Part shown: positions 236-31,330 of the stretch, piece by piece | How positions within the stretch are numbered: position 1 is the first letter of the stretch | Layout: each line of letters begins with the position of its first letter | Virus record (IMG/VR): IMGVR_UViG_2606217103_000006 | Direction: 5' to 3' (one strand) | DNA length: 46,471 bases | From: a virus | Lineage: Duplodnaviria; Heunggongvirae; Uroviricota; Caudoviricetes | Notes under the pieces: model-generated | What the model was told of the DNA's origin: nothing | Seen by the model: only the letters and a program-made list of their open reading frames with translations | The model's database searches: none | Program-made: the position numbers and the translations under genes

Positions 236-451
236 AACCGCAGCACGTTCCTGCATACGACGTGTCTGCGGCATAATCCCAATGATTACTCCCTGACAGG
301 ATTTGCAGGCCACTCAATATCAGGTACAGTTGATGTATCAACACGATTCAACAATACCCGATATTTATTCCATGCCTCCAGCAACGATCTTTCTTCCTCC
401 GTTGCGATTTCCAGATCTACAGCATCCTGCAGTGGCGCAATATACTCACTG
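236..451. repeat. direct repeat copy 1 (about 215 bp): tfa 3' end plus downstream stem-loop
   Basis: Near-identical to 1286-1500 by eye (roughly 85-90 percent); contains inverted repeat ccgcagcacg...cgtgtctgcgg. Confidence 0.7.
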
Positions 452-555
452 AATTCCTGGATGTAGAACTGTGTGGTGACGGTCTTCCAGCCATTCGGCT
501 CCTGCTGTATCGAAGCATACCAGGCTATTTCAATATCGCTATGCTGCGGCAGCAT
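286..555 (-). pseudogene. tail fibre assembly protein C-terminal remnant (duplicated tfa 3' end fused to unrelated N-terminus)
   Basis: C-terminal ~50 aa ([46 protein letters not shown]) nearly identical to C-terminus of the intact Tfa at 1335-1919. Confidence 0.5.
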
Positions 556-611
556 TTAACCCCTTGTAATTCATCGCCATAATTGATTTAATTCACAAAT
601 AAAACTATAAC

Positions 612-1280
612 ATGGTGAAATCAATGAAAAAAAACACAGATGATGGGGCTAAAATTTACACACCACTTACCCTAAAGCTTTATGACTGGTGGGTTTTGGG
701 AGTATCAAATCGGCTTGCATGGGGATGTCCTACAAAGGAACACCTTCTTCCACACTTTCTGGAACATGTAGGTAACAACCATCTGGATATTGGTGTTGGA
801 ACTGGGTTTTACCTTACTCACGTACCTGAGAGTAGTCTGATATCTTTAATGGATTTGAACGAAGCTAGCCTGAACGCGGCATCTACAAGGGCTGGGGAAT
901 CAAAAATTAAACATAAAATTAGCCATGATGTTTTTGAACCTTATCCCGCGGCGTTACATGGTCAATTTGATTCCATTTCCATGTTTTACCTTCTTCACTG
1001 CCTGCCTGGAAATATATCTACAAAAAGCTGTGTAATACGCAATGCGGCGCAGGCCTTAACTGACGATGGAACTCTATACGGAGCCACAATTCTTGGCGAT
1101 GGAGTTGTGCACAATAGCTTCGGTCAAAAACTGATGCGCATTTACAATCAGAAAGGCATCTTTTCAAACACAAAAGATTCCGAAGAAGGCTTAACACATA
1201 TACTCTCAGAGCATTTCGAGAATGTTAAAACCAAGGTTCAAGGTACTGTAGTAATGTTTTCCGCTTCAGGGAAAAAATAG
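612..1280 (+). CDS. class I SAM-dependent methyltransferase-like cargo protein (substrate unknown)
   Basis: Glycine-rich SAM-binding motif I (HLDIGVGTGFY); AT-rich relative to flanks; opposite strand to tail genes; flanked by direct repeats. Confidence 0.6.
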   Translation: MVKSMKKNTDDGAKIYTPLTLKLYDWWVLGVSNRLAWGCPTKEHLLPHFLEHVGNNHLDIGVGTGFYLTHVPESSLISLMDLNEASLNAASTRAGESKIKHKISHDVFEPYPAALHGQFDSISMFYLLHCLPGNISTKSCVIRNAAQALTDDGTLYGATILGDGVVHNSFGQKLMRIYNQKGIFSNTKDSEEGLTHILSEHFENVKTKVQGTVVMFSASGKK

Positions 1281-1500: not shown

Positions 1501-1919
1501 GCTACCTGCATCAGGTTGTTTTTTGTTTCTTCCGCTTCCCGTATCCGAAACAGTTTTTCTGCTTCTTCATCTTTCACCCAGGATGTGCCGTTCCACTTCT
1601 GAAACTCCCCTTCCGGGGATAACCAGGTGACATTTTCCGGTAATGAGCCGAGTTCAGAAATAAATAACGCGTCGCCGGAAGCCACGTCATAAACCGTTTT
1701 ACCCCGATGATCTTCAACGAGATGCCACGATGACTCATCACTGTTGAAAACAGCCACGAAACCAGCCGGAATATCTGGCGGTGCAATATAGGTACTGTTT
1801 GCAGGCAGACCTGTATGAGGTGGAATATATGCGTCACCGTCACCAATAAATTCATTAGTTCCGGCCAGCAGATTATAAATTTTTATGGTCCGTGGTTGTT
1901 CACTCATTCTGAATGCCAT
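1335..1919 (-). CDS. tfa: tail fibre assembly protein
   Basis: 194 aa; immediately downstream of and overlapping stf (ATGA junction at 1919); lambda Tfa-like C-terminus. Confidence 0.85.
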
Positions 1920-4690
1920 TATGCAAGCCTCACAATGTAGTTAAATGCGATGTTTTTGACGGTGTTTTCCGCGTTACCAGCAGCGTTAACGGTGATGGTG
2001 TGTCCATGTGAGCCAATCGCAACCGAGTGCGTATGAGCACCAATACCGACAGTATGTGCATGTGCGCCTGCGCTTGCAGCAGTACCCGATACAGAGTGCG
2101 TATGAGCGCCTGCAGAAGAAGTGTTAACACTGTATTTAGAATAATCAGGTGATCCACTTCCCGGAGCACCACTGGAACCACCTGAAACAAATGTCATCGA
2201 ATGGGTATGTGCACCGGCTGAAGCAGCCGTACCGCTAACACTATGGGTATGCGCACCAGTGTTATTCGTGGATTTAGTGCCGTAATCAAACGACGATGTG
2301 GTTTTCGTCCCCAAATCCGTACTGGATACGCTGGCGCTGTGGGTGTGTGATTTAATGCCGTCCTGTTCCTGAGACAATACGGCCCGACCACTGGCGGGCT
2401 TGCCCTTAATCGTCCAGCCACGCATATCAGGGATCACGCCTGACGGATAAGCGGCTGCAAGTTTCGGGTATGCAGATTTGTCAAAAGTCTGCCCCTGCAT
2501 CAGGGCATAACCAGACGGAACGGTATCTGATGGCCACGGGATTGGTGCGCCGACTGGGTAGCTTTCTGGTGGAAGATTTTTCGAAGTATAAACTTCTGCC
2601 CAGTCTTCCTCAAAACCATAACCGTCTCTTGAAGAACGGTAGAACAGACCACCATTTCTGTAATGCGCCTTCATCTGCAAGGTCCGGCAACTTCCGACTC
2701 CGGTATAGAAGTTAACCAGAATATAGCTGTCGCCAGAGCGGGTGACATTGTAAGCGCCTGATTCGGCATTCCAGGGAACGGCTCCATCCGAATCCGCATA
2801 AGCCCCCGTCGAACGTCGGGCAAATGCACCAATATTTTCCGGCGTGAGGTTAATATCCGCCGAGCCATCAAACTTAACACCGTTAATTTTTGGGTCTGCC
2901 GCAAGTTTCGTCGCGGTATCGGCGTTCCCCTTCAGTGCCCCGGTGATCCCATCAGTAACAGACAACGGACCTGAAATAGTCCCTCCAGTTGTTGGCAGCG
3001 CTCCAATATCTGATGGTGTAGGTTTCTGATGTGAGCTATACATCGTATAAACAACACCATCGGTAACGCTGGAAGGCTTACTCGCTGAATATGTTAGCGA
3101 GGTATAAATAGAAACTGACGCATTTGTAGTACAATCCCAATGGATATTTACACTCGTCGCATAATTGCCAATCTCAACGTAAATATCATATATATCGCCG
3201 GATGTGTTGATCCAGGCGAAATTCGTTAATCCGACGGCTGTACGCTTCCACAAAGCTCCGGTAATCCCTTTGGGGTTTCCATTGCCTGCTCGTAGAACCA
3301 GTTCAGATATACCTGCCTGTTGAGGTGCCCCCACGTTAAATCCAGCGCCACCAATCAATGCGATGTAAACGATGGAACTCGCTTGTGGCATGGTAACCGT
3401 TGCCAGTTTGAACCACCCTGCCCCGCCAGAGAAAGAGATCGTTACTGAATTTAAAGTGCCAATATCTTTCGGTGTTAATGTTATATCCGCAGTCAGTGCT
3501 TTCCCGTTAACTTTTCGGTTAGATGGTACCCTGCCATTCGCATTGTCATTCGCTGCTTTAACTGCCTTCGGTGTCGCGGCAAGCGTTTCAGATGTGCTGT
3601 TGGTTGCACTGCTGAGCTGTACTATCCCCTTTTTCGTCGTGCTCGCATCCTCAAGCGCCACGGCGGATGCAATATCCTCTGCCCGTTTTGCCGCTGTCTC
3701 GGCGCGCGTTGCCGCGGATTCCGCCGTACTTTTGCTCTGAGCTGCCGCCGTCGCACTGCCAGCTGCCTCTGTCGCCTTCGTGGATGCCGTCGTGGCGCTG
3801 CCCTTTGCTGCTGACGCCTGTCTGGTCGCCTCATCTTTTGAAGCAGACGCAGATGATGCCGATGACGCCGCCGAACTGGCGGACGATGCGGCAGCCGTTT
3901 TTGAGGATTCTGCGCTGGTTTCCGAGGCTTTCGCGTTCGTTTCGGATGTCTTCGCTGCCTCTTTTGAGGCCGCCGCATCCCGTGCTGAAGTGGCTGCTTC
4001 TGACGCTTTCGTGGTCGCGGTGGATGCAGAAGTGGCTGCTGATTGTTGTGACGCAGCCGCATTCGTTTCTGACGTTTTCGCCGCACCGGCACTGGTAGCC
4101 ACCGCGCTTTTTGAGGACTCTGCAGCGGCAGCACTTTTTGATGCTTCAGTAGCCTTTGTTGATGCCGTTCCTGCGCTGGAAGACGCTGACTGAGCCGACG
4201 TCGCGGCCTGCCCGGCTGATGTGCTGGCTGCACGTGCTGAGCCTGCAGCATCAGTCGCATGGGTTGCCGCCTCACTGGCAGATATGCTGGCATCGCTGGC
4301 TGACTTCTTCGCGGCTGCCGTGTTCTGTGCAACCGCGGAGGCGTTACGTGACACCTCTTCCACCATCTGCTCAAAGCGGCGCAGTGCCTCCGGTCGGACA
4401 TCATCCTCCGTCATGGCACCGAGAAAATCATTCAGCGTACCTGGTCTGGAACCTTCATAGACGGTAATGGTCCCGGCATGTGAAGGCGGAAAACCTTCAA
4501 CCAGCAGGGTGACGCTGTACTGGCCATGCTCAACATCCATGCTGTAACGTCCGGCTTCATCCGGATTTTCAGAGGCCACCGTGTTCACCACCACCGTGCT
4601 GCTGGTTCGTCTGGCCTTCAGCACAATGGTGCAGTTCTGTACTGGTTTTCCTGTGCCATCTTTAAGCACGCCAGAAATTTTTACTGTCAT
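1919..4690 (-). CDS. stf: side tail fibre protein
   Basis: 923 aa; long Ala/Ser/Thr-rich low-complexity shaft and C-terminal [20 protein letters not shown] repeats typical of E. coli prophage side tail fibres. Confidence 0.9.
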
Positions 4691-22061: not shown

Positions 22062-22264
22062 AACCTCACTCCCAGCGGACGACGGCGACGGCGGGTTGTC
22101 CCCAGTACCGACTCCGCATCATTGATCGCCCGGTTAAGCTCATCCAGAGAAGCTGCCGTATATTCAATTCTGCGACCATCTTTCTGGACAGACACCACCC
22201 GTTTACCGGTTAATAAATCAAGGCGCGCCTGACGCAGCGCCTGCAGTTCAGCGACTGTAACCAT
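22058..22264 (-). CDS. W: head-tail joining protein W
   Basis: 68 aa as lambda W. Confidence 0.85.
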   Translation of the reverse strand: MVTVAELQALRQARLDLLTGKRVVSVQKDGRRIEYTAASLDELNRAINDAESVLGTTRRRRRPLGVRL

Positions 22265-24176
22265 TCACTCCTCCGGACAGCTTCGCTGCCAGTTCTTTAA
22301 GGGTTGGCCGGGTCGTCTCTTCTTCCCGGGATTTTGCCAGTACAGCCAGATCAAGCTGCCAGCGTTGCACGGACACACGTAATGCCGCGTAGGCATACAC
22401 CAGGCAGTCCAGCGCTTCGTTACGCCGCTTTTTGTTATCCCACAGCAGACGCATCTTTCCTTTTTCCCACTTCTCCACAAGCTCTTCCGCGACCAGTTGC
22501 TGCGCCTCTGTCTGCGAAAAAATCTCCGGATCATCAGGAAAACGGATGGCATACGACGTGGCTTCATCCGCAGGCGTGGGCTCGGCTTTCATACGGGCAT
22601 AGAGAATTTCTTTTGCGGTGTCCGTCCCCACTTCACACAGATAAACGCCCCGCTGATTGCGGGTTTTCGGCATGGTGATCACCGGCTTGCCATAGACAGA
22701 CGCGCCTTTTACCGGCAGCACACGGAAAACACCGTGTTTTTTTGACCTCTGGTAGACGATTTCACCATCGATCCCCCCGGTGTCCCAGCAGACACGGGAA
22801 ATGGTCATTTCGGTGCCATCCGCATGGCGGTATTTTTTGTTGATCGCCGCATCCACACGTAACAGCGTCTCTTCCTCATCGGGACGTCCCATAATGATGA
22901 TTTTATCCACCAGAAAGGCTTCCTCTCCCGGAGCCCATCCCCAGACATACATCTCAAAACGGTTTCGCTGCGAGTCAATGCCCGCCGTCAGATAAACCAC
23001 CCGGGCAGGCACCGCCGCCGTGTAATGAACAACCTTATCCATCAGTACCTGGTGATCGAGTTTTTCGCCCACGGCCTCTTCCCAGGTCTCGCCCAGCGTG
23101 GTGTTCACAAAGGTTTTCAGGCCGTTGGGATCTTTCAGTGCATCCAGCCAGTCATAGACAATCTGTACCCAGGTGGTGAACGGACTGTACGCCGTCCAGA
23201 TATGGAATGTGATGGAGCGCGGCGGCGGAATTTCATTATCCGCGGCGCTGAAAAACGTCAGACCGTCGCGGGTCCACATCCCCGTGTTTTCGCAGATCCA
23301 CCGCCCGTTGCTCTGGTCAAGCTCAGACTGATGGATCACGCAGCCATGATGTTCACAGAGGTAGAAAACGCTTTCGGGGCTGTCCTTCTCCCATTTAAGG
23401 CCAAAAGGCGTGGACTCATCGCCAAATTTCAGATACTGCGCCTCCCCACAGTGCGGGCAGGGCACATAAAAACGCATGAAATGCGCCGACTCGTTGGCCG
23501 CTTTTTCGATCTGGCAGGAGCCTTTTATTTTAGGCGTCGAGCCGCGAATGGATTTTGGCCATACCGAGCCCTCAATACGCTTATCCCCCAGCAGGGTTGG
23601 CGAGCCCTCTTTTTCGACATCCGGCTCGAACGAGGAAAGTTCGTCATAGCAGACCACGTCCACGGATTTTTCACGGTAGTTTTTTGCTGCCGCACCACCC
23701 AGGCACCAGAAGCCCACCCCCGATGAAAAGCGTTTCAGCGTGAGAGTATTGTCACGATGTTTACGACCCAGCCACGGGGAAAGATCTTTCAGGCATGGCA
23801 CGTCCCGAATCGTCGCCTCCACGTGAGACTTCATAAAATCTTCAGCGGCAGAATCCGTGGGCTGAAAAAGCAGACTGTTTCGGGATTTATGCTCAATAAA
23901 ATACCCGGCGACTCCCAGCAACATCTTTGTATAGCCAACACGGGCAGATTTAATCAGATTAACAGTGCGGATCTGATCATTCCCCATACTGTTCATGATG
24001 GCGATCTGGAACGGCAGCGTTTTCCATTCGCCGTCACCGTATGAGGATTCTTTCGGCAGATAATAATACTGGTCAGCCCATTCAACTGCCGTCATCGGTA
24101 CAACCCTGACCAGAGGCTGCAGCGCAACCGAAACGGCGGCCACCATATTATTCAGTTGTTGCTCTGATATATTCAT
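22248..24176 (-). CDS. A: terminase large subunit A
   Basis: Start at internal ATG 24176 (MNISEQQ...); TAVEWAD, ATPase and nuclease regions lambda gpA-like. Confidence 0.9.
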   Translation of the reverse strand: MNISEQQLNNMVAAVSVALQPLVRVVPMTAVEWADQYYYLPKESSYGDGEWKTLPFQIAIMNSMGNDQIRTVNLIKSARVGYTKMLLGVAGYFIEHKSRNSLLFQPTDSAAEDFMKSHVEATIRDVPCLKDLSPWLGRKHRDNTLTLKRFSSGVGFWCLGGAAAKNYREKSVDVVCYDELSSFEPDVEKEGSPTLLGDKRIEGSVWPKSIRGSTPKIKGSCQIEKAANESAHFMRFYVPCPHCGEAQYLKFGDESTPFGLKWEKDSPESVFYLCEHHGCVIHQSELDQSNGRWICENTGMWTRDGLTFFSAADNEIPPPRSITFHIWTAYSPFTTWVQIVYDWLDALKDPNGLKTFVNTTLGETWEEAVGEKLDHQVLMDKVVHYTAAVPARVVYLTAGIDSQRNRFEMYVWGWAPGEEAFLVDKIIIMGRPDEEETLLRVDAAINKKYRHADGTEMTISRVCWDTGGIDGEIVYQRSKKHGVFRVLPVKGASVYGKPVITMPKTRNQRGVYLCEVGTDTAKEILYARMKAEPTPADEATSYAIRFPDDPEIFSQTEAQQLVAEELVEKWEKGKMRLLWDNKKRRNEALDCLVYAYAALRVSVQRWQLDLAVLAKSREEETTRPTLKELAAKLSGGVNGYSR

Positions 24177-24654
24177 CCAGCAAATCCGGTAATTTATCCC
24201 CTGCCCGCGCACACTGATTTGCGCCCTTTGCAATAAGGGTTTTCAGATGGTCAATATGACGTGGCGTTAAATCCGGGAACTGTCGCTGCATGGATAACGG
24301 AATGGAATCAAGCGTACTGGACAATGCCATCGCCAGTTTGCTGAGGGCGAAAACGCAGAAGTCTGAATCGATGAGCTTACCTTCGGTTACCTGATTTTTA
24401 AGTTTTTGAGCTACAGCCTGTTCTTCTGTCAGTTCAGCTCTGGCCCGAAGCAGCCTTTCCTCCAGTTCTCCCCCGTCATCAGGTGTTCTCTGATTGTGTT
24501 GTCGCCGCTCGCGATCTATCTCCAGTACAGTTTTAACGTCATATAAAACTTCCCTCCCCCGACGTTCAACAGGAGGAACGCCCCATTTATCAAATGCCTG
24601 AACAGAGATACCGATGGAGGAGGCCATATCACTTTTATTCAATAAAAAGGCCAT
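24148..24654 (-). CDS. nu1: terminase small subunit Nu1
   Basis: Start chosen at ATG 24654 (MAFLLNKSDMASSIG..., SD GGAGAGGAG); overlaps A as in lambda. Confidence 0.8.
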   Translation of the reverse strand: MAFLLNKSDMASSIGISVQAFDKWGVPPVERRGREVLYDVKTVLEIDRERRQHNQRTPDDGGELEERLLRARAELTEEQAVAQKLKNQVTEGKLIDSDFCVFALSKLAMALSSTLDSIPLSMQRQFPDLTPRHIDHLKTLIAKGANQCARAGDKLPDLLDEYIRATTE

Positions 24655-24870
24655 CTCCTCTCCATAAGTCATCGATAAAAAGCGAAACAACAACCATGTG
24701 TTTTTGCAAAACCATTTGATATCATTGACATTTTTCGCATTGACGACATCAAAACACATCGTAAGGTTGTTGTATTTATTTTATTTTCACCTTACTTATC
24801 AATTAGATATACCAAACAATTAAACAACAACCACCCCCTCAAAAAATCTCATAAATAGTGAAAACGCGCG

Positions 24871-24882
24871 AGGTCGCCGCCC
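24871..24882 (-). other. cos site: cosN 12-nt cohesive end (GGGCGGCGACCT on minus strand), cosB towards Nu1, cosQ-like sequence to the right
   Basis: Plus strand aggtcgccgccc followed by cgtaacgatctggatcaccggaaaggaccc, matching remembered lambda left/right ends. Confidence 0.85.
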
Positions 24883-25105
24883 CGTAACGATCTGGATCAC
24901 CGGAAAGGACCCGCCAACGACTTTCGCGTGCAGGCATTAAAAATTTTGCAGTTCCATGCCTAGTTGAAACCTCGATTTCTATAACATCCAATTTTGTAAA
25001 TTTAGATATAGCTCAACTTTTCCCAATGTTTTCAAGTGTATAAAAACAATTGGCGTTACGCCATAACACTATACTTAGGATAAGTAAAGATTTTAAGGAG
25101 TTTTA

Positions 25106-26173
25106 ATGAGTCAACATCAATATTATCCACAGCTGAAATGGAAGCCTGCTGAATATGAATCTCTGATGCTTTTAGATCAAACTACGCTCTCTGGTTTTAC
25201 TCCGATCATTACCATTCCAGACATAGACTGGGATTATGAAAACGAATGCTACAAGAAGAGTTTGAGTTCTTACTTATCTGACTTCGGTATTAACCTTGCG
25301 GCATCCTGGAAAGCCAATCGTCCTGTTTTGCTGGATGTTAAATATTTAGATAAACATGGTTCGAGCCGCCATCATCCTCTAGATATGTGTATCCAAGATG
25401 CTAGAGTAAATGGTAAGGAAATTATCCCTGTTGTTTCTCCCGCATATTCAACAAACTATATACATGCTGTTCAACGCAACTTAATCAATGGGCTCGCTAT
25501 ATCTATCACCCCCCAGACATGGCACCAATTCACAAGTCTGGTTAACCACTTAAATATTCATCCTAGTTTAATTGATGTAATCATTGATTTTGGAGATATT
25601 CAAAACGCAACTGATAGTTTAAAACAACAAGCATTAAGCATGGTCAACACATTATCAGGCCAAGCTCCGTGGAGAAACTTGATTTTATCTTCAACCGCAT
25701 ACCCGGCATCACAGGCAGGGATACCGCAACATCAAGTTCATCATATTCCGCGCCATGAATACGATCTTTGGATGTACGTAGTACAGAATTTTAGCAATGG
25801 AAGAACGCCAAGTTTTAGTGATTATCCCACCGCTAGCTCTACCATTACGAGCGTAGACCCACGCTTCATGTCTCAGTATGTCTCAGTGAGATATTCGAAC
25901 GATACCTCATGGATCTTTGTAAAAGGTACCGCAGTTAAAGGAAATGGATGGGGCCAAACTAAAAACTTATGTACTACCCTTGTTAGTTCGCCAGAGTATC
26001 AAGTCTTTGGCTCCAAATTTAGTTGGGGGGATGATTACATTTACCAAAGATCATTAGGCGCTAACAAATCTGGCGGCTCTAAAGAATGGCGTAAAGTTGC
26101 ACATACGCACCATATTACGTTAGTCGTGAGACAGCTTTATTGGTTGGCGCAGACTCAGCCTGCCAAGCCTTAA
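25106..26173 (+). CDS. uncharacterised 355-aa protein, cargo cassette gene 1
   Basis: Strong SD AAGGAG 7 nt upstream; AT-rich; no catalytic motif recognised. Confidence 0.7.
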   Translation: MSQHQYYPQLKWKPAEYESLMLLDQTTLSGFTPIITIPDIDWDYENECYKKSLSSYLSDFGINLAASWKANRPVLLDVKYLDKHGSSRHHPLDMCIQDARVNGKEIIPVVSPAYSTNYIHAVQRNLINGLAISITPQTWHQFTSLVNHLNIHPSLIDVIIDFGDIQNATDSLKQQALSMVNTLSGQAPWRNLILSSTAYPASQAGIPQHQVHHIPRHEYDLWMYVVQNFSNGRTPSFSDYPTASSTITSVDPRFMSQYVSVRYSNDTSWIFVKGTAVKGNGWGQTKNLCTTLVSSPEYQVFGSKFSWGDDYIYQRSLGANKSGGSKEWRKVAHTHHITLVVRQLYWLAQTQPAKP

Positions 26174-26735
26174 CTTTCCAGCCTACGCGTTTCTTTAAGG
26201 CTGTTCTGACTTCAGGCCTGAGATTCGCTATTGGAATATTTTCCGCAATAATATTCCATAACTCAAATCGGGGCTTGCTTTTGATTCCTTTGGAATAGCC
26301 CCATCGTTCAAGTACGTCGATACATTCATCTTTCCAAAGCAATTGAGCGAGCATCAATGTGTCATGGTTTCGATTAAGCTTTTCTCCACGCATGTGCTTT
26401 ATAAGAATGGCGCCTTTTGGCCCAACAGAAACCGTTTTAACGCCCCACCAACCTGGGATTAACTTTAATGCTCCCTCAAGGTGTTTCTCAGCTACGACAA
26501 GAGTAACCTTGTCCATTACAGAAGAATAATGCTTGATTTGAAGAGGCAAACGCTCCAAAGAGTCATATTCACTTTTGAGCTCGTACCCGTGTATAACACC
26601 ATTTATTACAGCAATGTCTGCTCTACTGGCGCCAAGGGATATGGAAAATTCATCGACCACAAGGCAGTCTGGATCTAAATGCGATTCTTTCAAAAGCTTA
26701 TGATGCACCGCGAACCTAACATCTTGATCTTTCAT
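26115..26735 (-). CDS. uncharacterised 206-aa protein with PD-(D/E)xK nuclease-like motif, cargo cassette gene 2
   Basis: RADIAV...GYELKSE arrangement (D ... E-x-K); SD TAAGGAG; 3' end overlaps gene 1 by 59 bp (convergent). Confidence 0.7.
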   Translation of the reverse strand: MKDQDVRFAVHHKLLKESHLDPDCLVVDEFSISLGASRADIAVINGVIHGYELKSEYDSLERLPLQIKHYSSVMDKVTLVVAEKHLEGALKLIPGWWGVKTVSVGPKGAILIKHMRGEKLNRNHDTLMLAQLLWKDECIDVLERWGYSKGIKSKPRFELWNIIAENIPIANLRPEVRTALKKRVGWKVKAWQAESAPTNKAVSRLT

Positions 26736-26764
26736 GACTTCTCCTTACTCCCTCCGTTATTGAA

Positions 26765-26792
26765 TTATAGCGCACTGCATTTTACTGCATTT
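26765..26792 (-). promoter_or_regulatory. putative promoter of cassette gene 2: perfect -10 TATAAT plus tandem AAATGCAGT repeats
   Basis: Minus strand aaatgcagtaaaatgcagtgcgcTATAATtcaataacggagggagtaaggagaaATG. Confidence 0.4.
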
Positions 26793-27085
26793 GAGAGATT
26801 TGACCACTTCAATCACAAAATGCTTATCTGCAGCAACAAGATTCATAGCCATACGACTATGGTGATTACCTTTTGTCTGGAAAACTGACCATTCCACGAA
26901 GATCAGATAGGTCTATAGAATCTTGGTTTGTCATAGCGTTCGTCTTACTTTGAGATGAACCTTTGCTGCATAGGAGATCAGCCCGTCAAGGCTCACCAGC
27001 ACTAACTGACTACTCAAAGGCTCATTCCAAAGGGTTTGGTTCGACGTGGTTGAGTGCGCTGCGGTGCGCGGTGAAATACCTGTAC

Positions 27086-27114
27086 AAAAATGCCCCGCAT
27101 CTGCGAGGCATTTT
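27086..27114 (-). terminator. intrinsic terminator downstream of Rz
   Basis: AAAATGCC-loop-GGCATTTT hairpin with T-run on minus strand. Confidence 0.6.
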
Positions 27115-27151
27115 CCTGAAAGTCACGTATTAAATTTCAGTGAAATTAAAA

Positions 27152-27625
27152 TTATTTTAAGCACTGCGTCCTGATGTACTCCTGCAGGTAGTTGACCTGA
27201 GCGGTTATCTTGTCGATTCCACTTCGGAGACGGTAATAATTGAGTTCAGCATCTGCTGTAAGTCTTGGGCTTTCTCCATCGCCCATGCTGCTGGCTCCGG
27301 TCGTTGACTTTGCACAGGTGGCGGCGACTTGCAGGCGCTTACGCCCAGCAGAAACATCAGCACGAAGACTTTCGATAGTCGCGTTAGCATCAGCAAGCTC
27401 CTTTGTGTATCTGGCGTCGAGTTCTGCTACATCACGCTGACGCATCTGCATGTCAGTAATTGCCACGTTCGCCAGCTTCAGTTCTCTGGCATTTTTGTCG
27501 CGCTGGGCTTTGTAGGTAATGGCGTTATCGCGGTAATGATTAACAGCCCATGACAGGCAGACGATGGTGCAGATAACCAGAGTATAAATAATCGCTGCGA
27601 CTCTGCTCACTGATCTATCCCCCAA
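27152..27625 (-). CDS. rz: i-spanin Rz
   Basis: 157 aa; N-terminal TM, coiled coil; overlaps endolysin end. Confidence 0.85.
27205..27396 (-). CDS. rz1: o-spanin Rz1 (lipoprotein embedded in Rz, +1 frame)
   Basis: Lipobox LLGVSAC, proline-rich mature region. Confidence 0.8.
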
Positions 27626-28140
27626 CAGGCTAATGCGCTTTCCTGGTCACGACGAATAACCTGTCCATAGCAGTTATTTGAACGTATGCGGCAATCGCGC
27701 CCACCATCTTTTATCCACCAGCGAATCGCCTCGCATGCGCCCTTACGATCACCGGCATTCAGCCGCTTATAAAACGTCGACGGGAAACACTTACCGGGGC
27801 CAATGTTATAGGGACAGAATGACGCTATACCCGCTTTCTGTGGTTCGGTCAGTGGTACTTTAATATTGCGCTCCACCCATGCCAGCGCCTTATCACGTTC
27901 AATAGCGTTAACCTGGTCGCATTTTTCCTTCGACAGCTTCATTCCCGGTATGACGGGCTTACCATCCACCATTGTGGCACCACGACAGATGGTCCATATA
28001 CCGGAACCATCGCGGTATGCCGTAGTGTGGTTACCCTCTTTTTCATCCAGAAACTGGTCAAGTATTTGAGGAGCAGACGCGCCTGCAGCAATCAGCGCCA
28101 GAACAGCAGCTGACAGGCCGTATTTGATTTTTGCGCTCAT
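27607..28140 (-). CDS. R: SAR endolysin (GH24 lysozyme-like)
   Basis: E-x8-D-x5-T catalytic arrangement ([16 protein letters not shown]); Gly/Ala-rich N-terminal signal-anchor-release segment. Confidence 0.85.
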
Positions 28141-28880: not shown

Positions 28881-30749
28881 TTATGATGATGCTGGTGCAT
28901 TTATCTCCAGCACCAGACTTTCTATCTCAACGCCATACGCTGCATTTTTTGTAACATCCGTCAGCGTCAGCGCATTCAGCCCCAGTGTCAGACTGTCTTT
29001 TATGACCTGGAATGCCGGGCCAGCCACTCCATTCAGTTTCGGAGTAACCGTGGCACTGCCGGCGGTGAACACCAGCTCCAGCGTCTGCCAGTCGTTACCG
29101 TAATCGCCGAACTCCCCCAGCTTCGTGTTTCCGGCTTTCCTGTGATGCATCAGATTCACTCTGCCGTCAATGGTCTGAGTGAAGTAAGACATCAGGAACG
29201 GATTACCAGTACCCGTCATCGCCACATCATCAGGAACGGGAGCGTCCGTATACAGATAAATCCCCAGCCCGAACTGATTGTTGGTCAGTGCGCCTGAGAG
29301 GCGGAACTTACAGGTCAGTCTGCCGCCCTGTGTCAGCAGGGTAATTGCGTCATCCACCGGATGCATCAGGTACCAGGTTTTATTGCTCTGCTTGGTGATC
29401 TTAAATACACCCTCTGACAACTGAATTCCGCCATTCTTAATGCTCCAGCCCTGCGCAGCAGCATCTCCGGCTGTCGGCAACAGGGAGATTGTGCGTACGG
29501 ATGCATCTTCAGACGGCCCCGATGGCGTGTCGCCGCCGGGCGAGGGTTTGATTTCCGGTGCCTTACCACTAATGAAGGCTAAGGTGCGACCGGCTACGTT
29601 CAGAATAGCAGTTGCCATACGATCGGGAATAATGCCACGACGCGCCCATGAGCTGAAATGCGTCGGGCGATTTGATGATACCCAGTTTTTGTTCGTTCGG
29701 GATGCCGAACCGTAATAACCAGACCCGACAATATCAGGATCTTCTGACGGGTTGTTTGTCGGTGTATTAACTCCGCTACCATCGGTCATAAAGGGAACAA
29801 AATAAATCTGCTGGGATTCTTTACCTTTATATGCACCATATACCACTTCATATTGCGTACCGTGTTCTTGTTTCCACGCGTATGTCGTGTCGCCACAAAT
29901 CCAGGGGACTGATGCCGGACTTCCACCGTGACACTGCGCCGCCAGCCCGGCAAGGTCAGCACGGAACTGCTGTACCATTGCAAGAAATGCTGCTGGCTGC
30001 TGGGCGTAACTGGCATTCGTCATATCGAATTCCCCCTGCATCCAGCATATCGCCAGCAAAACGTTTTTCGGGTTTTTCTGCAATGCTGCCTTCGTGCGGA
30101 AAAGCAGATCCTGATATAACGGCTTACCCACTCCCCAGCGAGCCGAATCCTGACTGGCCCCCGTGGACTCGCTGAATGTCCCCTCCGTGCCCTTGGTGAA
30201 TGCCGAACCACCACGACAGCATGGTACCAGCAGGATCCCCGCATTATTAGGGATATACGGAAGCAGTTTTTTGGCAATATGTAAGCCCTGTCCGACACAA
30301 CCGTACTGCCCTTTGCTCAGGTCAGCCCGGGGATGGTTAATCGTACTCATATCCTGAACATCATGCAGACAATGGTCAGCAGGAATGATGTCGTTAAATA
30401 CGCATACTTCGCCACCGGGAGTCACTGTGTTACGACGGGCCAGTTGCTTAATGCGCGGATGGGGCGCATCGTATGAATCCGGAAGCGGAAGCCCTTCACC
30501 GTAAGCCATGGCATTGGACTGCCCGGCCAGTACGATGACGTAGTACCACTCCGGCTCAGTTGCACCACTGACGACCACATCACCTTCTGCTGCAATCGCC
30601 TGCATCAGGGTATAAGGGGTTATGGCCACCGGACTACCAAACGGCTGCCAGCCCTCTTTCAGTTTATGTGTCAGCTTTTCCGCAAGATCTGACGGCGACG
30701 CCGCCCTGACAACATCATAGTGTTTAAATGCCATGGTTCTTTCCACCAT
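28881..30749 (-). CDS. NanS-p-like sialate O-acetylesterase (DUF1737 N-terminus + GQSN esterase domain)
   Basis: 622 aa; LAGQSNAMAYGEG motif; same position as the esterase gene downstream of stx in Stx phages. Confidence 0.8.
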   Translation of the reverse strand: MVERTMAFKHYDVVRAASPSDLAEKLTHKLKEGWQPFGSPVAITPYTLMQAIAAEGDVVVSGATEPEWYYVIVLAGQSNAMAYGEGLPLPDSYDAPHPRIKQLARRNTVTPGGEVCVFNDIIPADHCLHDVQDMSTINHPRADLSKGQYGCVGQGLHIAKKLLPYIPNNAGILLVPCCRGGSAFTKGTEGTFSESTGASQDSARWGVGKPLYQDLLFRTKAALQKNPKNVLLAICWMQGEFDMTNASYAQQPAAFLAMVQQFRADLAGLAAQCHGGSPASVPWICGDTTYAWKQEHGTQYEVVYGAYKGKESQQIYFVPFMTDGSGVNTPTNNPSEDPDIVGSGYYGSASRTNKNWVSSNRPTHFSSWARRGIIPDRMATAILNVAGRTLAFISGKAPEIKPSPGGDTPSGPSEDASVRTISLLPTAGDAAAQGWSIKNGGIQLSEGVFKITKQSNKTWYLMHPVDDAITLLTQGGRLTCKFRLSGALTNNQFGLGIYLYTDAPVPDDVAMTGTGNPFLMSYFTQTIDGRVNLMHHRKAGNTKLGEFGDYGNDWQTLELVFTAGSATVTPKLNGVAGPAFQVIKDSLTLGLNALTLTDVTKNAAYGVEIESLVLEINAPASS

Positions 30750-30994
30750 CTGAAAAATGATTCTTTAAAATACCTGACATGTAATACAGAAAAAAAACAA
30801 AACCATACCTTAAATAAAAACCTCATCATCAAGCAGATATGCATGGATAAACTACAAGACGAGATATAAACCACCCTGCATTTAAATAAACAATAAACAA
30901 CATCAGAAAAATAATTCTGCTCTATGGTTTACAATCAAAAATATCATTTATACTTTTCAGAACATCACCAGCAAGGCATAAACAAGGAAACTAA

Positions 30995-31330
30995 ATGAAG
31001 TGGATTGTGATTGATACAGTTATCCAGCCATCATGCGGAATATCTTTTTCAGTCATATGGAGTAAAATAAAATTAATAATCTGGTATCAATCGGATGCTT
31101 TCTTACCTCCTGAAAGTATATTTACACTGACTCACACAGGCATCATGCTCAATAACAAAGTGCTACCTGTAACCATTTACAACGTAGTGCCATTCAATAA
31201 AACATTCTGGAATTTAATCAAAAACAGCCAGGAATGCCCTACAAATACAGATAACGTATTGAATGAATGCTTTAATAACCGTTGCACTCTGCAAATATGT
31301 CCTTATGGACTAAAACAACAAAGTCCATAA
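30995..31330 (+). CDS. hypothetical Cys-rich small protein (111 aa), AT-rich cargo
   Basis: RBS AGGAAA 6 nt upstream; 6 Cys; opposite strand to late genes; no recognised family. Confidence 0.4.

What the first reader, a model, noticed from the sequence alone, without database searches (positions are those of the whole stretch)
24950..26800. Convergent, 3'-overlapping two-gene cassette inserted between the lysis genes and cos
A 355-aa protein (plus strand) and a 206-aa protein (minus strand) overlap by 59 bp at their 3' ends. Each has its own strong SD and promoter-like sequence; the small gene has a perfect TATAAT and a tandem AAATGCAGT repeat upstream. The small protein shows a PD-(D/E)xK-like arrangement (D in RADIAV, E-x-K in YELKSE), suggesting a nuclease effector. 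The island is AT-rich and occupies the Rz-cos junction, where lambda carries bor and other accessory genes. The sizes and pairing resemble, from memory only, paired uncharacterised families annotated as beta/sce7725-like and sce7726-like. Convergent overlap implies mutual antisense control.
Basis: partly seen in the sequence, partly recalled or inferred. Interest (0 to 1): 0.8.

Follow-up and report, generated by a model that had tools for sequence, protein, structure and literature searches.

The report
Prophage beta–cII two-gene defence cassette
A lambda-like E. coli prophage carries, next to its DNA-packaging site, two tail-to-tail overlapping genes (a barrel-shaped enzyme-like protein and a DNA-cutting enzyme) that form the toxin-less core of a known satellite-phage anti-virus system, so it is a recognisable family member whose two-gene form has never been tested.

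Summary
A 355-aa ORF (25106-26173, +) and a 206-aa ORF (26115-26735, -) converge and overlap by 59 bp. They lie in a low-GC island between Rz and cosN of a lambda-like prophage.

The large protein is Pfam Beta_protein (PF14350). The small one is sce7726 / Phage_P4_cII. These are homologues of beta and cII of the satellite phage P4 Gop-beta-cII defence system, and P4 has the same convergent layout.

The toxin gene gop is absent here. PGAP already annotates the pair in 127 of 5426 complete E. coli genomes.

In 75 of 77 cII-anchored loci from more than ten phyla, the two genes overlap at their 3' ends. In 64 of 73 loci, conserved codons of the two genes lie exactly 25 nt apart, in a fixed dual-coding register. 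The window's own 59-bp overlap is derived: a TAG stop in relatives is TGG here.

Verdict: a new (gop-less) variant of a known kind, and probably an anti-phage module. Its mechanism and any antisense control are untested.

The parts
24867..24882 (-). Lambda-type cosN (GGGCGGCGACCTCGCG). It marks the virion chromosome end; the cassette lies just inside the right end.
   Evidence: Exact 16-nt match, 0.01 expected by chance; the Nu1-like ORF 24148-24759 (-) follows it.
25002..25105 (+). Upstream control region of the beta gene. It holds a conserved block TTAGATATAGCTCAA...TTTTCA..TATA and the SD AAGGAG at 25095-25100.
   Evidence: The block is conserved in L009-L012 copies that have unrelated flanks. 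No consensus sigma-70 site was scored here.
25106..26173 (+). beta-family gene, 355 aa: a TIM-barrel protein (Pfam PF14350 Beta_protein; PADLOC PD-Lambda-2_C and 'beta').
26115..26173 (.). 59-bp convergent 3' overlap. It encodes beta residues ~337-355 on + and the non-conserved, disordered tail of the cII-like protein on -.
   Evidence: Tail residues 192-206 have pLDDT <50. The tail arises from TGG where relatives have TAG.
26115..26735 (-). cII-like / sce7726-family gene, 206 aa: PD-(D/E)xK nuclease core (E29, D40, E52, K54) plus a C-terminal helical domain.
26736..26825 (-). Upstream control region of the cII-like gene. It holds SD AAGGAG 26746-26741, TATAAT 26769-26764, the tandem repeat AAATGCAGT-A-AAATGCAGT 26792-26774, and an alternative promoter-like TGGTCA-16-TAAAAT 26806-26779.
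   Evidence: The whole block (CCAAAT..AAATGCAGTAAAATGCnGTGCGCTATAAT) is conserved in L009-L012.
26931..27150 (-). Remnant of the 5' part of a P22-type rha gene, directly downstream of Rz. It marks the right-hand edge of the replaced segment.
   Evidence: 87% identity to rha of P22, BTP1 and others. No intact ORF is present there.

Best explanation
What it is: a self-contained, horizontally mobile accessory cassette of about 1.8 kb (window ~25000-26825). It belongs to the beta/cII gene-pair family (PF14350 + PF26915/sce7726). It replaced most of an rha gene between Rz and cos of a lambda-like E. coli prophage. It is the two-gene core of the family that includes P4 Gop-beta-cII, and it lacks the Gop toxin.

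Most likely function: a prophage-encoded anti-phage (superinfection-exclusion or abortive-infection) module.

Proposed mechanism:
- The cII-like protein is a Mg2+-dependent PD-(D/E)xK nuclease and acts as the effector.
- The TIM-barrel beta protein is the infection sensor or activator, possibly a small-molecule or nucleic-acid enzyme. It is needed for effector activity and is not a classical antitoxin.
- The two genes are transcribed convergently from their own conserved control regions with no terminator between them. Each mRNA must therefore run antisense into the other gene, which could couple their expression.

Shown here: homology, folds, invariant catalytic residues, conserved pairing, orientation and overlap, purifying selection, location.

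Inferred: the defence function, who senses and who kills, and any antisense regulation.
For: Family and layout:
- Full-length hit to PF14350 and hits to NF033832 and PADLOC 'beta', 'cll' and PD-Lambda-2_C.
- P4 has beta (355 aa) and cII convergent.
- P4 gop-beta-cII protects against lambda and P1 (Rousset 2022, PMC9122126) and is triggered by a phage accessory gene.
- The beta-like PD-lambda-2C is required for defence but not for toxin neutralisation (PMC9519451).

Nuclease:
- E29, D40, E52 and K54 are invariant in 52 homologues, including P4 cII.

Beta:
- Confident TIM barrel.
- The invariant acidic residues D77 and D239 sit at the C-terminal ends of barrel strands, and nearly invariant R216 directly follows one.

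Obligate pairing:
- 77 of 80 genome loci and 79 of 80 viral contigs found through cII also carry beta, nearly always convergent.
- 4 of 4 P4-type contexts found through beta carry cII.

Autonomy of the pair:
- No gop homologue in the window or in any of the 209 other loci held at the time of the search.
- Third genes are variable or absent.

Selection: dN/dS 0.04-0.08.

Mobile accessory context:
- Low GC.
- Position beside cos, as in P4.
- Different insertion sites in Rac-SA53 (next to hok/mok), P4-like satellites and Vibrio prophages.

Beta is not a simple antitoxin of cII: three E. coli genomes have beta broken by different IS elements while the 206-aa cII ORF is intact.
Against: - No experiment exists for any gop-less pair in the literature searched.
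- In P4 the demonstrated toxic component is Gop, not cII, and the role of cII there is undefined.
- The published PD-lambda-2 clone ends 396 bp past gene C. If a cII gene lies there it was truncated, yet defence worked. Whether a cII gene exists at that locus was not verified.
- The beta fold matches no specific enzyme family, and neither family has a solved relative. 'Sensor' is therefore by analogy only.
- The promoter consensus scan is not above chance.
- No conserved RNA structure is present in the overlap.
- The cassette DNA is absent from 50,697 GenBank phage records. It is known only from prophages and IMG/VR contigs.
Confidence: 0.55

Rival explanations
1. Toxin-antitoxin or addiction module. 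The cII-like nuclease (or beta) is a toxin restrained by its partner. The pair mainly stabilises the prophage or island and does not block other phages.
For: P4 gop/beta behaves like a toxin-antitoxin pair. Beta-family genes sit next to HigB/Xre-peptidase modules in 14 of 77 loci and next to hok/mok in Rac-SA53. The pair is found on many mobile elements.
Against: The layout is convergent, not a co-directional autoregulated operon. Beta is disrupted by IS elements in three genomes while the cII ORF stays intact, so cII is not lethal without beta. TA-like and defence functions are not mutually exclusive.
Confidence: 0.15
2. Restriction-modification-like pair. The TIM-barrel beta protein modifies DNA or a nucleotide pool (as TGT/DpdA-type barrels do). 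The PD-(D/E)xK protein cuts unmodified, or modified, foreign DNA.
Confidence: 0.1
3. A function for the carrier phage itself: a regulator or DNA-processing factor acting in lysogeny, packaging or late gene expression. The name 'cII' and some database names ('regulatory protein') suggest this.
Against: The same pair occurs in non-phage chromosomal contexts across more than ten phyla and at unrelated positions in other phages. The P4 genes are non-essential. The catalytic residues are invariant. The GC content is atypical.
Confidence: 0.07
4. Decaying, non-functional remnant of an old insertion.
For: It sits next to an rha pseudogene. The cII stop codon has been lost. There are occasional IS hits.
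Against: Both ORFs are full length and at least 99% identical in 127 genomes. dN/dS is 0.04-0.08 against relatives of 77-85% identity. All catalytic and structural motifs are intact.
Confidence: 0.03

Closest known systems
Satellite phage P4 Gop-beta-cII defence system (DefenseFinder Rst_gop_beta_cll; PADLOC gop_beta_cll)
   Same: Homologous beta (355 aa in both, 22% identity, both full-length PF14350) and homologous cII (27% identity, both NF033832). Same convergent beta-> <-cII layout. Same position immediately beside cos of a mobile element.
   Different: No gop gene. The cII-like protein is short (206 against 264 aa). The ORFs overlap by 59 bp, whereas P4 has a 27-bp gap with an annotated terminator. 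The window pair belongs to the 'interlocked' sce7726-type clade, not the P4-type clade (gop-like 126-137 aa + beta + long cII of 229-270 aa, no overlap).
PD-lambda-2 (Vassallo et al. 2022): HigB-like A, Xre-peptidase B, beta-like C
   Same: The window beta protein matches the PD-Lambda-2_C models better than the P4 'beta' model (4e-32 against 3.5e-10). 14 of 77 cII-anchored loci have HigB + HTH-Peptidase_M78 directly upstream of beta.
   Different: The window has no HigB-like or Xre-peptidase gene. The published system has no cII component.
MmcB-like / PD-(D/E)xK nucleases (PDB 3dnx SPO1766; Can2; NucS; type II restriction enzymes)
   Different: No significant sequence match to any solved structure. 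It has an extra C-terminal helical domain and is obligately paired with a TIM-barrel gene.
Lambdoid accessory ('moron') locus between Rz and cos (lambda bor region; P22 rha)
   Same: Same genomic slot, atypical GC, and own control regions. The comparison with lambda bor rests on my own knowledge.
   Different: The cargo is a two-gene convergent module. One gene (beta) is antisense to the late operon.
beta/'CII phage-like' pair of Escherichia phage Rac-SA53; pairs in Gordonia phages Powerball and DumpsterDude and in Mycolicibacterium phage Mycofy1
   Same: Same two families, convergent, overlapping by about 40-56 nt.
   Different: 30% (beta) and 54% (cII) identity to the Rac-SA53 pair. That pair is inserted in the nin region beside hok/mok, not at cos. 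It has the ancestral 25-nt register, not the window clade's expanded spacing.

Membership tests
P4 Gop-beta-cII system | gop: small membrane toxin gene immediately upstream of, and co-transcribed with, beta | tested here: not met
   tblastn of P4 Gop against the window gives nothing below E 1.5. There is no ORF between cos and beta on the + strand. No PADLOC gop hit.
P4 Gop-beta-cII system | beta protein (PF14350) | tested here: met
   E 8.2e-56, profile positions 1-342 of 342. P4 beta scores 4e-56 on the same model.
P4 Gop-beta-cII system | cII protein (PF26915 / NF033832 / PADLOC cll), convergent to beta | tested here: met
   NF033832 2.3e-54. PADLOC cll 3.8e-31. Convergent as in P4.
P4 Gop-beta-cII system | Confers resistance to phages (lambda, P1) when expressed from its native promoter | not testable with these tools
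   Needs plaque assays. No report for a gop-less pair was found.
PD-lambda-2 | HigB-like toxin (A) and Xre-HTH/M78 peptidase (B) upstream of the beta-like gene | tested here: not met
   No such ORFs are present. PADLOC hits are to component C only.
PD-lambda-2 | beta-like component C | tested here: met
   PDLC03984, 4.4e-32 over residues 141-344.
PD-(D/E)xK nuclease superfamily (cII-like protein) | alpha-beta-beta-beta-alpha-beta core fold | tested here: met
PD-(D/E)xK nuclease superfamily (cII-like protein) | Catalytic acidic residue on strand 2 and (D/E)xK on strand 3 | tested here: met
   D40, E52 and K54 (plus E29) are invariant in 52 sequences, including P4 cII.
PD-(D/E)xK nuclease superfamily (cII-like protein) | Metal-dependent nuclease activity | not testable with these tools
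   Needs a biochemical assay.
TIM-barrel enzymes (beta protein) | (beta/alpha)8 barrel | tested here: met
TIM-barrel enzymes (beta protein) | Assignment to a specific catalytic family | tested here: inconclusive
NCBIfam sce7725/sce7726 pair | sce7726 family protein | tested here: met
   NF033832, 184 bits against a cut-off of 70.
NCBIfam sce7725/sce7726 pair | Partner is a sce7725 family protein | tested here: not met
   No NCBIfam hit of any kind for the window beta, for four other beta proteins including the Sorangium one, or for neighbours of the Sorangium cII. PGAP names the partner 'beta family protein'.
Type II toxin-antitoxin operon | Two co-directional, co-transcribed genes | tested here: not met
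   The genes are convergent.
Lambdoid moron | Accessory DNA with atypical composition in a variable slot, with its own expression signals | tested here: inconclusive
   Slot and GC are met. Upstream blocks are conserved, but the promoter and terminator consensus scan is not above chance.

The most novel reading that the evidence does not exclude
The beta/cII pair is an ancient, autonomous two-gene immune module. P4's gop and PD-lambda-2's HigB/Xre-peptidase would then be later add-ons.

Its hallmark would be functional: the 3' ends of the two genes are locked in one dual-coding register. The codons for cII W186 and beta H336 lie exactly 25 nt apart in 64 of 73 loci from more than ten phyla. 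Convergent transcription through this interlock would act as a collision or antisense switch that sets the sensor-to-nuclease ratio. A phage that perturbs host transcription or RNA decay would trip the switch.
Probability: 0.2. Interest if true: 0.7.

Novelty: new variant of a known kind. Interest (0 to 1): 0.45.

Why it matters
If the gop-less pair defends on its own, the minimal functional unit of the Gop-beta-cII and PD-lambda-2 family is a TIM-barrel protein plus a PD-(D/E)xK nuclease. Neither protein's biochemical role has been determined.

PADLOC lists gop, and the HigB-like and Xre-peptidase components, as separate parts of these systems. Whether current PADLOC or DefenseFinder rules would report a pair lacking those parts was not tested here. 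If they do not, a module present in about 2% of complete E. coli genomes and in many phyla goes unreported.

The fixed dual-coding interlock of two convergent genes across phyla is an unusual genome-architecture feature. It offers a tractable model for asking whether 3'-overlap is regulatory or merely frozen.

For the window itself, the result is a straightforward annotation: a known-family accessory cassette at the Rz-cos hotspot.

Tried and rejected
- gop: tblastn against the window and the 209 other loci held at that point found P4 itself only.
- Conserved RNA structure or bidirectional terminator in the interlocked overlap: RNAalifold on 52 diverse 121-nt segments predicts 0 pairs. The conservation there is explained by coding on both strands.
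- Sigma-70 and terminator consensus scan: not enriched over shuffles. I relied on cross-species conservation of the upstream blocks instead.
- 'sce7725': no NCBIfam match for beta proteins or Sorangium neighbours.
- Solved structures by sequence: none for either family.
- Cassette DNA in GenBank phages: only the rha remnant matches.
- The distant blastn search of E. coli genomes found only the single allele at 99% identity or more, so the E. coli PD-lambda-2 locus could not be reached by DNA.
- Beta-anchored searches reached only the window clade and the P4 clade. A diverse beta alignment was too variable for a locus scan.
- Ghisotti et al. 1990 (PMC249035) is not held. Statements about it are second-hand, through Rousset 2022.
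- A simple cII-toxin / beta-antitoxin model: rejected as the leading model, because three genomes carry IS-disrupted beta with intact cII.
Full report
**Observation**

The window is a lambda-like prophage read on its minus strand:
- large terminase at 22248-24233
- Nu1-like small terminase at 24148-24759
- Rz at 27152-27625
- lysozyme at 27607-28140

A lambda-type cosN (GGGCGGCGACCTCGCG) lies at 24867-24882.

Between cosN and Rz there are two convergent ORFs. One is 25106-26173 (+, 355 aa) and the other is 26115-26735 (-, 206 aa). They share 59 bp at their 3' ends.

Both have AAGGAG ribosome-binding sites. GC falls to 0.37-0.44 across 25001-27000, against 0.51-0.56 in the terminase region and about 0.49-0.51 in the lysis genes.

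The TATAAT and the tandem AAATGCAGT repeat upstream of the small gene are present, and the repeat is unique in the window. A consensus promoter scan is not enriched over shuffles, at 3 sites against 6.1 expected.

Window 26931-27150 is 87% identical to the start of the P22-type rha region. The cassette therefore replaced most of an rha gene.

**Identity**

The 355-aa protein matches Pfam Beta_protein PF14350 end to end (E 8e-56). It also matches PADLOC PD-Lambda-2_C (4e-32) and 'beta' (3.5e-10).

The 206-aa protein matches NCBIfam sce7726 (2e-54) and PADLOC 'cll' (4e-31). Its homologues carry Pfam PF26915 Phage_P4_cII.

These are the beta and cII genes of satellite phage P4. In NC_001609 the layout is gop 247-648 (+), beta 651-1718 (+, 355 aa) and cII 1746-2540 (-). 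P4 therefore has the same convergent layout, also directly beside cos.

What is published about the related systems:
- Rousset et al. 2022 showed that gop-beta-cII protects against lambda and P1, and they cite Ghisotti 1990 for Gop being toxic without beta.
- Silas et al. found that a phage accessory gene, orf184, triggers the system's toxicity.
- In PD-lambda-2 the beta-like third component is needed for defence but not for toxin neutralisation.

The window pair is distant from P4, at 22% and 27% identity, and it has no gop.

PGAP already labels the pair 'beta family protein | sce7726 family protein'. It occurs in 127 of 5426 complete E. coli genomes. All copies are at least 99% identical and all are chromosomal. 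In 126 of them the same cos and rha flanks are present. The DNA is absent from 50,697 GenBank phage records but is common in IMG/VR prophage contigs.

**Structures**

Invariant residues across divergent beta proteins are Y6, E16, D77, D239, W328 and H336. D157, D161, R190 and R216 are nearly invariant. Several of these sit at or just after the C-terminal ends of strands, which is where TIM-barrel active sites lie.

The cII-like model (pLDDT 90) has the alpha-beta-beta-beta-alpha-beta core of PD-(D/E)xK nucleases plus a helical C-terminal domain. Residues 192-206 are disordered.

E29, D40, E52 and K54 are invariant in 52 homologues, including P4 cII. Neither family has a solved relative detectable by sequence.

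Both genes are under strong purifying selection. dN/dS is 0.04-0.08 against Edwardsiella, Klebsiella, Pantoea and Pectobacterium copies.

**Conservation of the pair**

A cII-anchored scan of one genome per species found 381 relatives. I analysed the best 80, which come from more than ten phyla:
- Pseudomonadota, Bacillota, Myxococcota, Bacteroidota and Acidobacteriota
- Chloroflexota, Armatimonadota, Elusimicrobiota and Gemmatimonadota
- Melainabacteria-like lineages and several candidate phyla radiation (CPR) groups

Results from these loci:
- 77 have a beta gene, always convergent. Two of the three exceptions sit at contig ends.
- In 75 of the 77 the ORFs overlap at their 3' ends by 11-158 nt. 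Because 3' ends are fixed by stop codons, this does not depend on the choice of start codon.
- Of 80 viral contigs, 79 have the pair.
- Four beta-anchored look-ups in the P4-type clade all show cII.

Sequenced phages with the pair include Rac-SA53 (beside hok/mok), the Gordonia phages Powerball and DumpsterDude, and Mycofy1.

No gop homologue occurs outside P4 in any of the 209 other loci held at the time of the search. A small gop-sized gene does precede beta in the P4-type clade.

In 14 of 77 loci, HigB and an HTH-Peptidase_M78 gene precede beta. This is the PD-lambda-2 arrangement with an additional convergent cII. In many other loci nothing is co-oriented upstream of beta. The two-gene pair is therefore the common core.

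**The interlock**

I mapped conserved residues onto the DNA. The codon of cII W186 and the codon of beta H336 lie exactly 25 nt apart in 64 of 73 loci. The relative frame is constant in 71 of 73. Among these are 52 sequences that are less than 80% identical to one another at the DNA level.

A 121-nt segment aligns almost without gaps. On one strand it reads ...K-x-R-x-x-W-R... (cII). On the other it reads W...N-H-H...Q-L (beta). The conserved C-terminal motifs of both proteins are thus encoded by the same DNA.

RNAalifold finds no conserved structure there. The conservation is dual coding, not an RNA element.

Two lineages have escaped this register:
- The P4-type clade has a long cII and a gap of 3-77 nt.
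- The window's own clade has a spacing of 64-66 nt.

In the closest relatives of the window, cII stops at a TAG four codons after W186, giving an 11-nt overlap. The window has TGG at that position, which adds 16 codons and produces the 59-bp overlap. The added tail is the disordered part of the model.

Convergent overlap as such is ancestral to the family.

**Control regions**

Upstream of cII, the block CCAAAT...AAATGCAGTAAAATGCnGTGCGCTATAAT is conserved in four relatives whose flanks are unrelated. It contains the tandem repeat, the TATAAT and an overlapping TGGcCA-16-TAAAAT.

A second block is conserved upstream of beta: TTAGATaTAGCTCAA...TTTTCA..TATA.

This supports independent, cassette-borne expression signals and sets the cassette limits at about 25000-26825.

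cII is co-oriented with the late operon and beta is antisense to it. No terminator-like site lies between the genes. Each transcript must therefore extend antisense into its partner. That is geometry; any regulatory consequence is inference.

**Mechanism**

The best-supported reading is a prophage-borne anti-phage module. The PD-(D/E)xK protein is the effector and the TIM-barrel protein is the sensor or activator.

A simple cII-toxin / beta-antitoxin model is disfavoured. Three E. coli genomes carry beta interrupted at different sites by IS1A, IS3 or IS1, while the 206-aa cII ORF remains intact. This fits the PD-lambda-2 result that the beta-like component is needed for defence rather than for neutralisation.

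Rival explanations are a pure addiction module, an R-M-like pair, a function for the carrier phage itself, and a decaying remnant. None of these is excluded experimentally.

**Novelty**

Both families, their pairing in P4 and their annotation are known. The gop-less two-gene form fails the membership test for Gop-beta-cII (no gop) and for PD-lambda-2 (no A or B component). It has no experimental record in the literature searched.

It is therefore a new variant of a known kind. The phylum-spanning dual-coding interlock is the most unexpected result. It was not found described in the papers available here, and absence from the wider literature cannot be shown with these tools.

Noticed in passing
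window 37376-38870 (+): A second low-GC island (GC 0.33-0.36) encodes a 264-aa Ser/Thr protein kinase (Pfam Pkinase 1e-31; PADLOC mad6, PD-T4-6 and Stk2 models) overlapping a 238-aa PP2C-type phosphatase (PF13672, 1e-10). It is probably another prophage exclusion or defence module.
   Followed up: partly
L042, L050, L059, L061, L063, L066, L068, L069, L071, L076-L079, L085 (genome loci): PD-lambda-2-type operons (HigB toxin + HTH-Peptidase_M78 + beta) carry a convergent, interlocked cII/sce7726 gene. That gene is not part of the published three-gene system. The published ECOR42 clone ends 396 bp beyond gene C, so it would truncate such a gene. Acinetobacter plasmids likewise show immA/irrE next to sce7726.
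   Followed up: partly
L017-L088, e.g. L017:5511-5631: The codons for cII W186 and beta H336 lie exactly 25 nt apart in 64 of 73 loci from many phyla. This is a fixed dual-coding register of two convergent genes, with no conserved RNA structure.
   Followed up: yes
L217 (NZ_CP042892.1), L218 (NZ_CP027312.1), L219 (NZ_CM129638.1): Three E. coli genomes have the beta gene interrupted by IS1A, IS3 or IS1 at different positions, while the 206-aa sce7726 ORF is intact.
   Followed up: partly
window 26931-27150: Remnant of the 5' end of a P22-type rha gene directly after Rz. No intact ORF remains.
   Followed up: partly
L015 / L128 (Xenorhabdus koppenhoeferi NZ_FPBJ01000049.1): A lone cII/sce7726 gene with no beta homologue in the 2.8 kb downstream. 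It is the only clear exception to the pairing.
   Followed up: no
L004-L008 (Enterobacteriaceae P4-like elements with an alpha-type primase): P4-like satellites carry a gop-less beta/cII pair (366 aa and 193 aa, 44-nt overlap) between an SLT-domain gene and the primase. This is a different slot from the P4 cos-proximal hotspot.
   Followed up: no
window 25051-25063 (-): A hairpin plus T-run (TGGCGTAACGCCA ATTGTTTTTA) lies on the minus strand just upstream of the beta start. It is the first terminator-like site that a cII or late-operon transcript would meet after crossing the whole beta gene in antisense.
   Followed up: no
window 28881-31330: By comparison with the annotated near-identical E. 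coli locus, 28881-30749 (-) is a SASA-family carbohydrate esterase and 30995-31330 (+) is an IraM-like anti-adaptor. Both are further accessory genes of this prophage.
   Followed up: no
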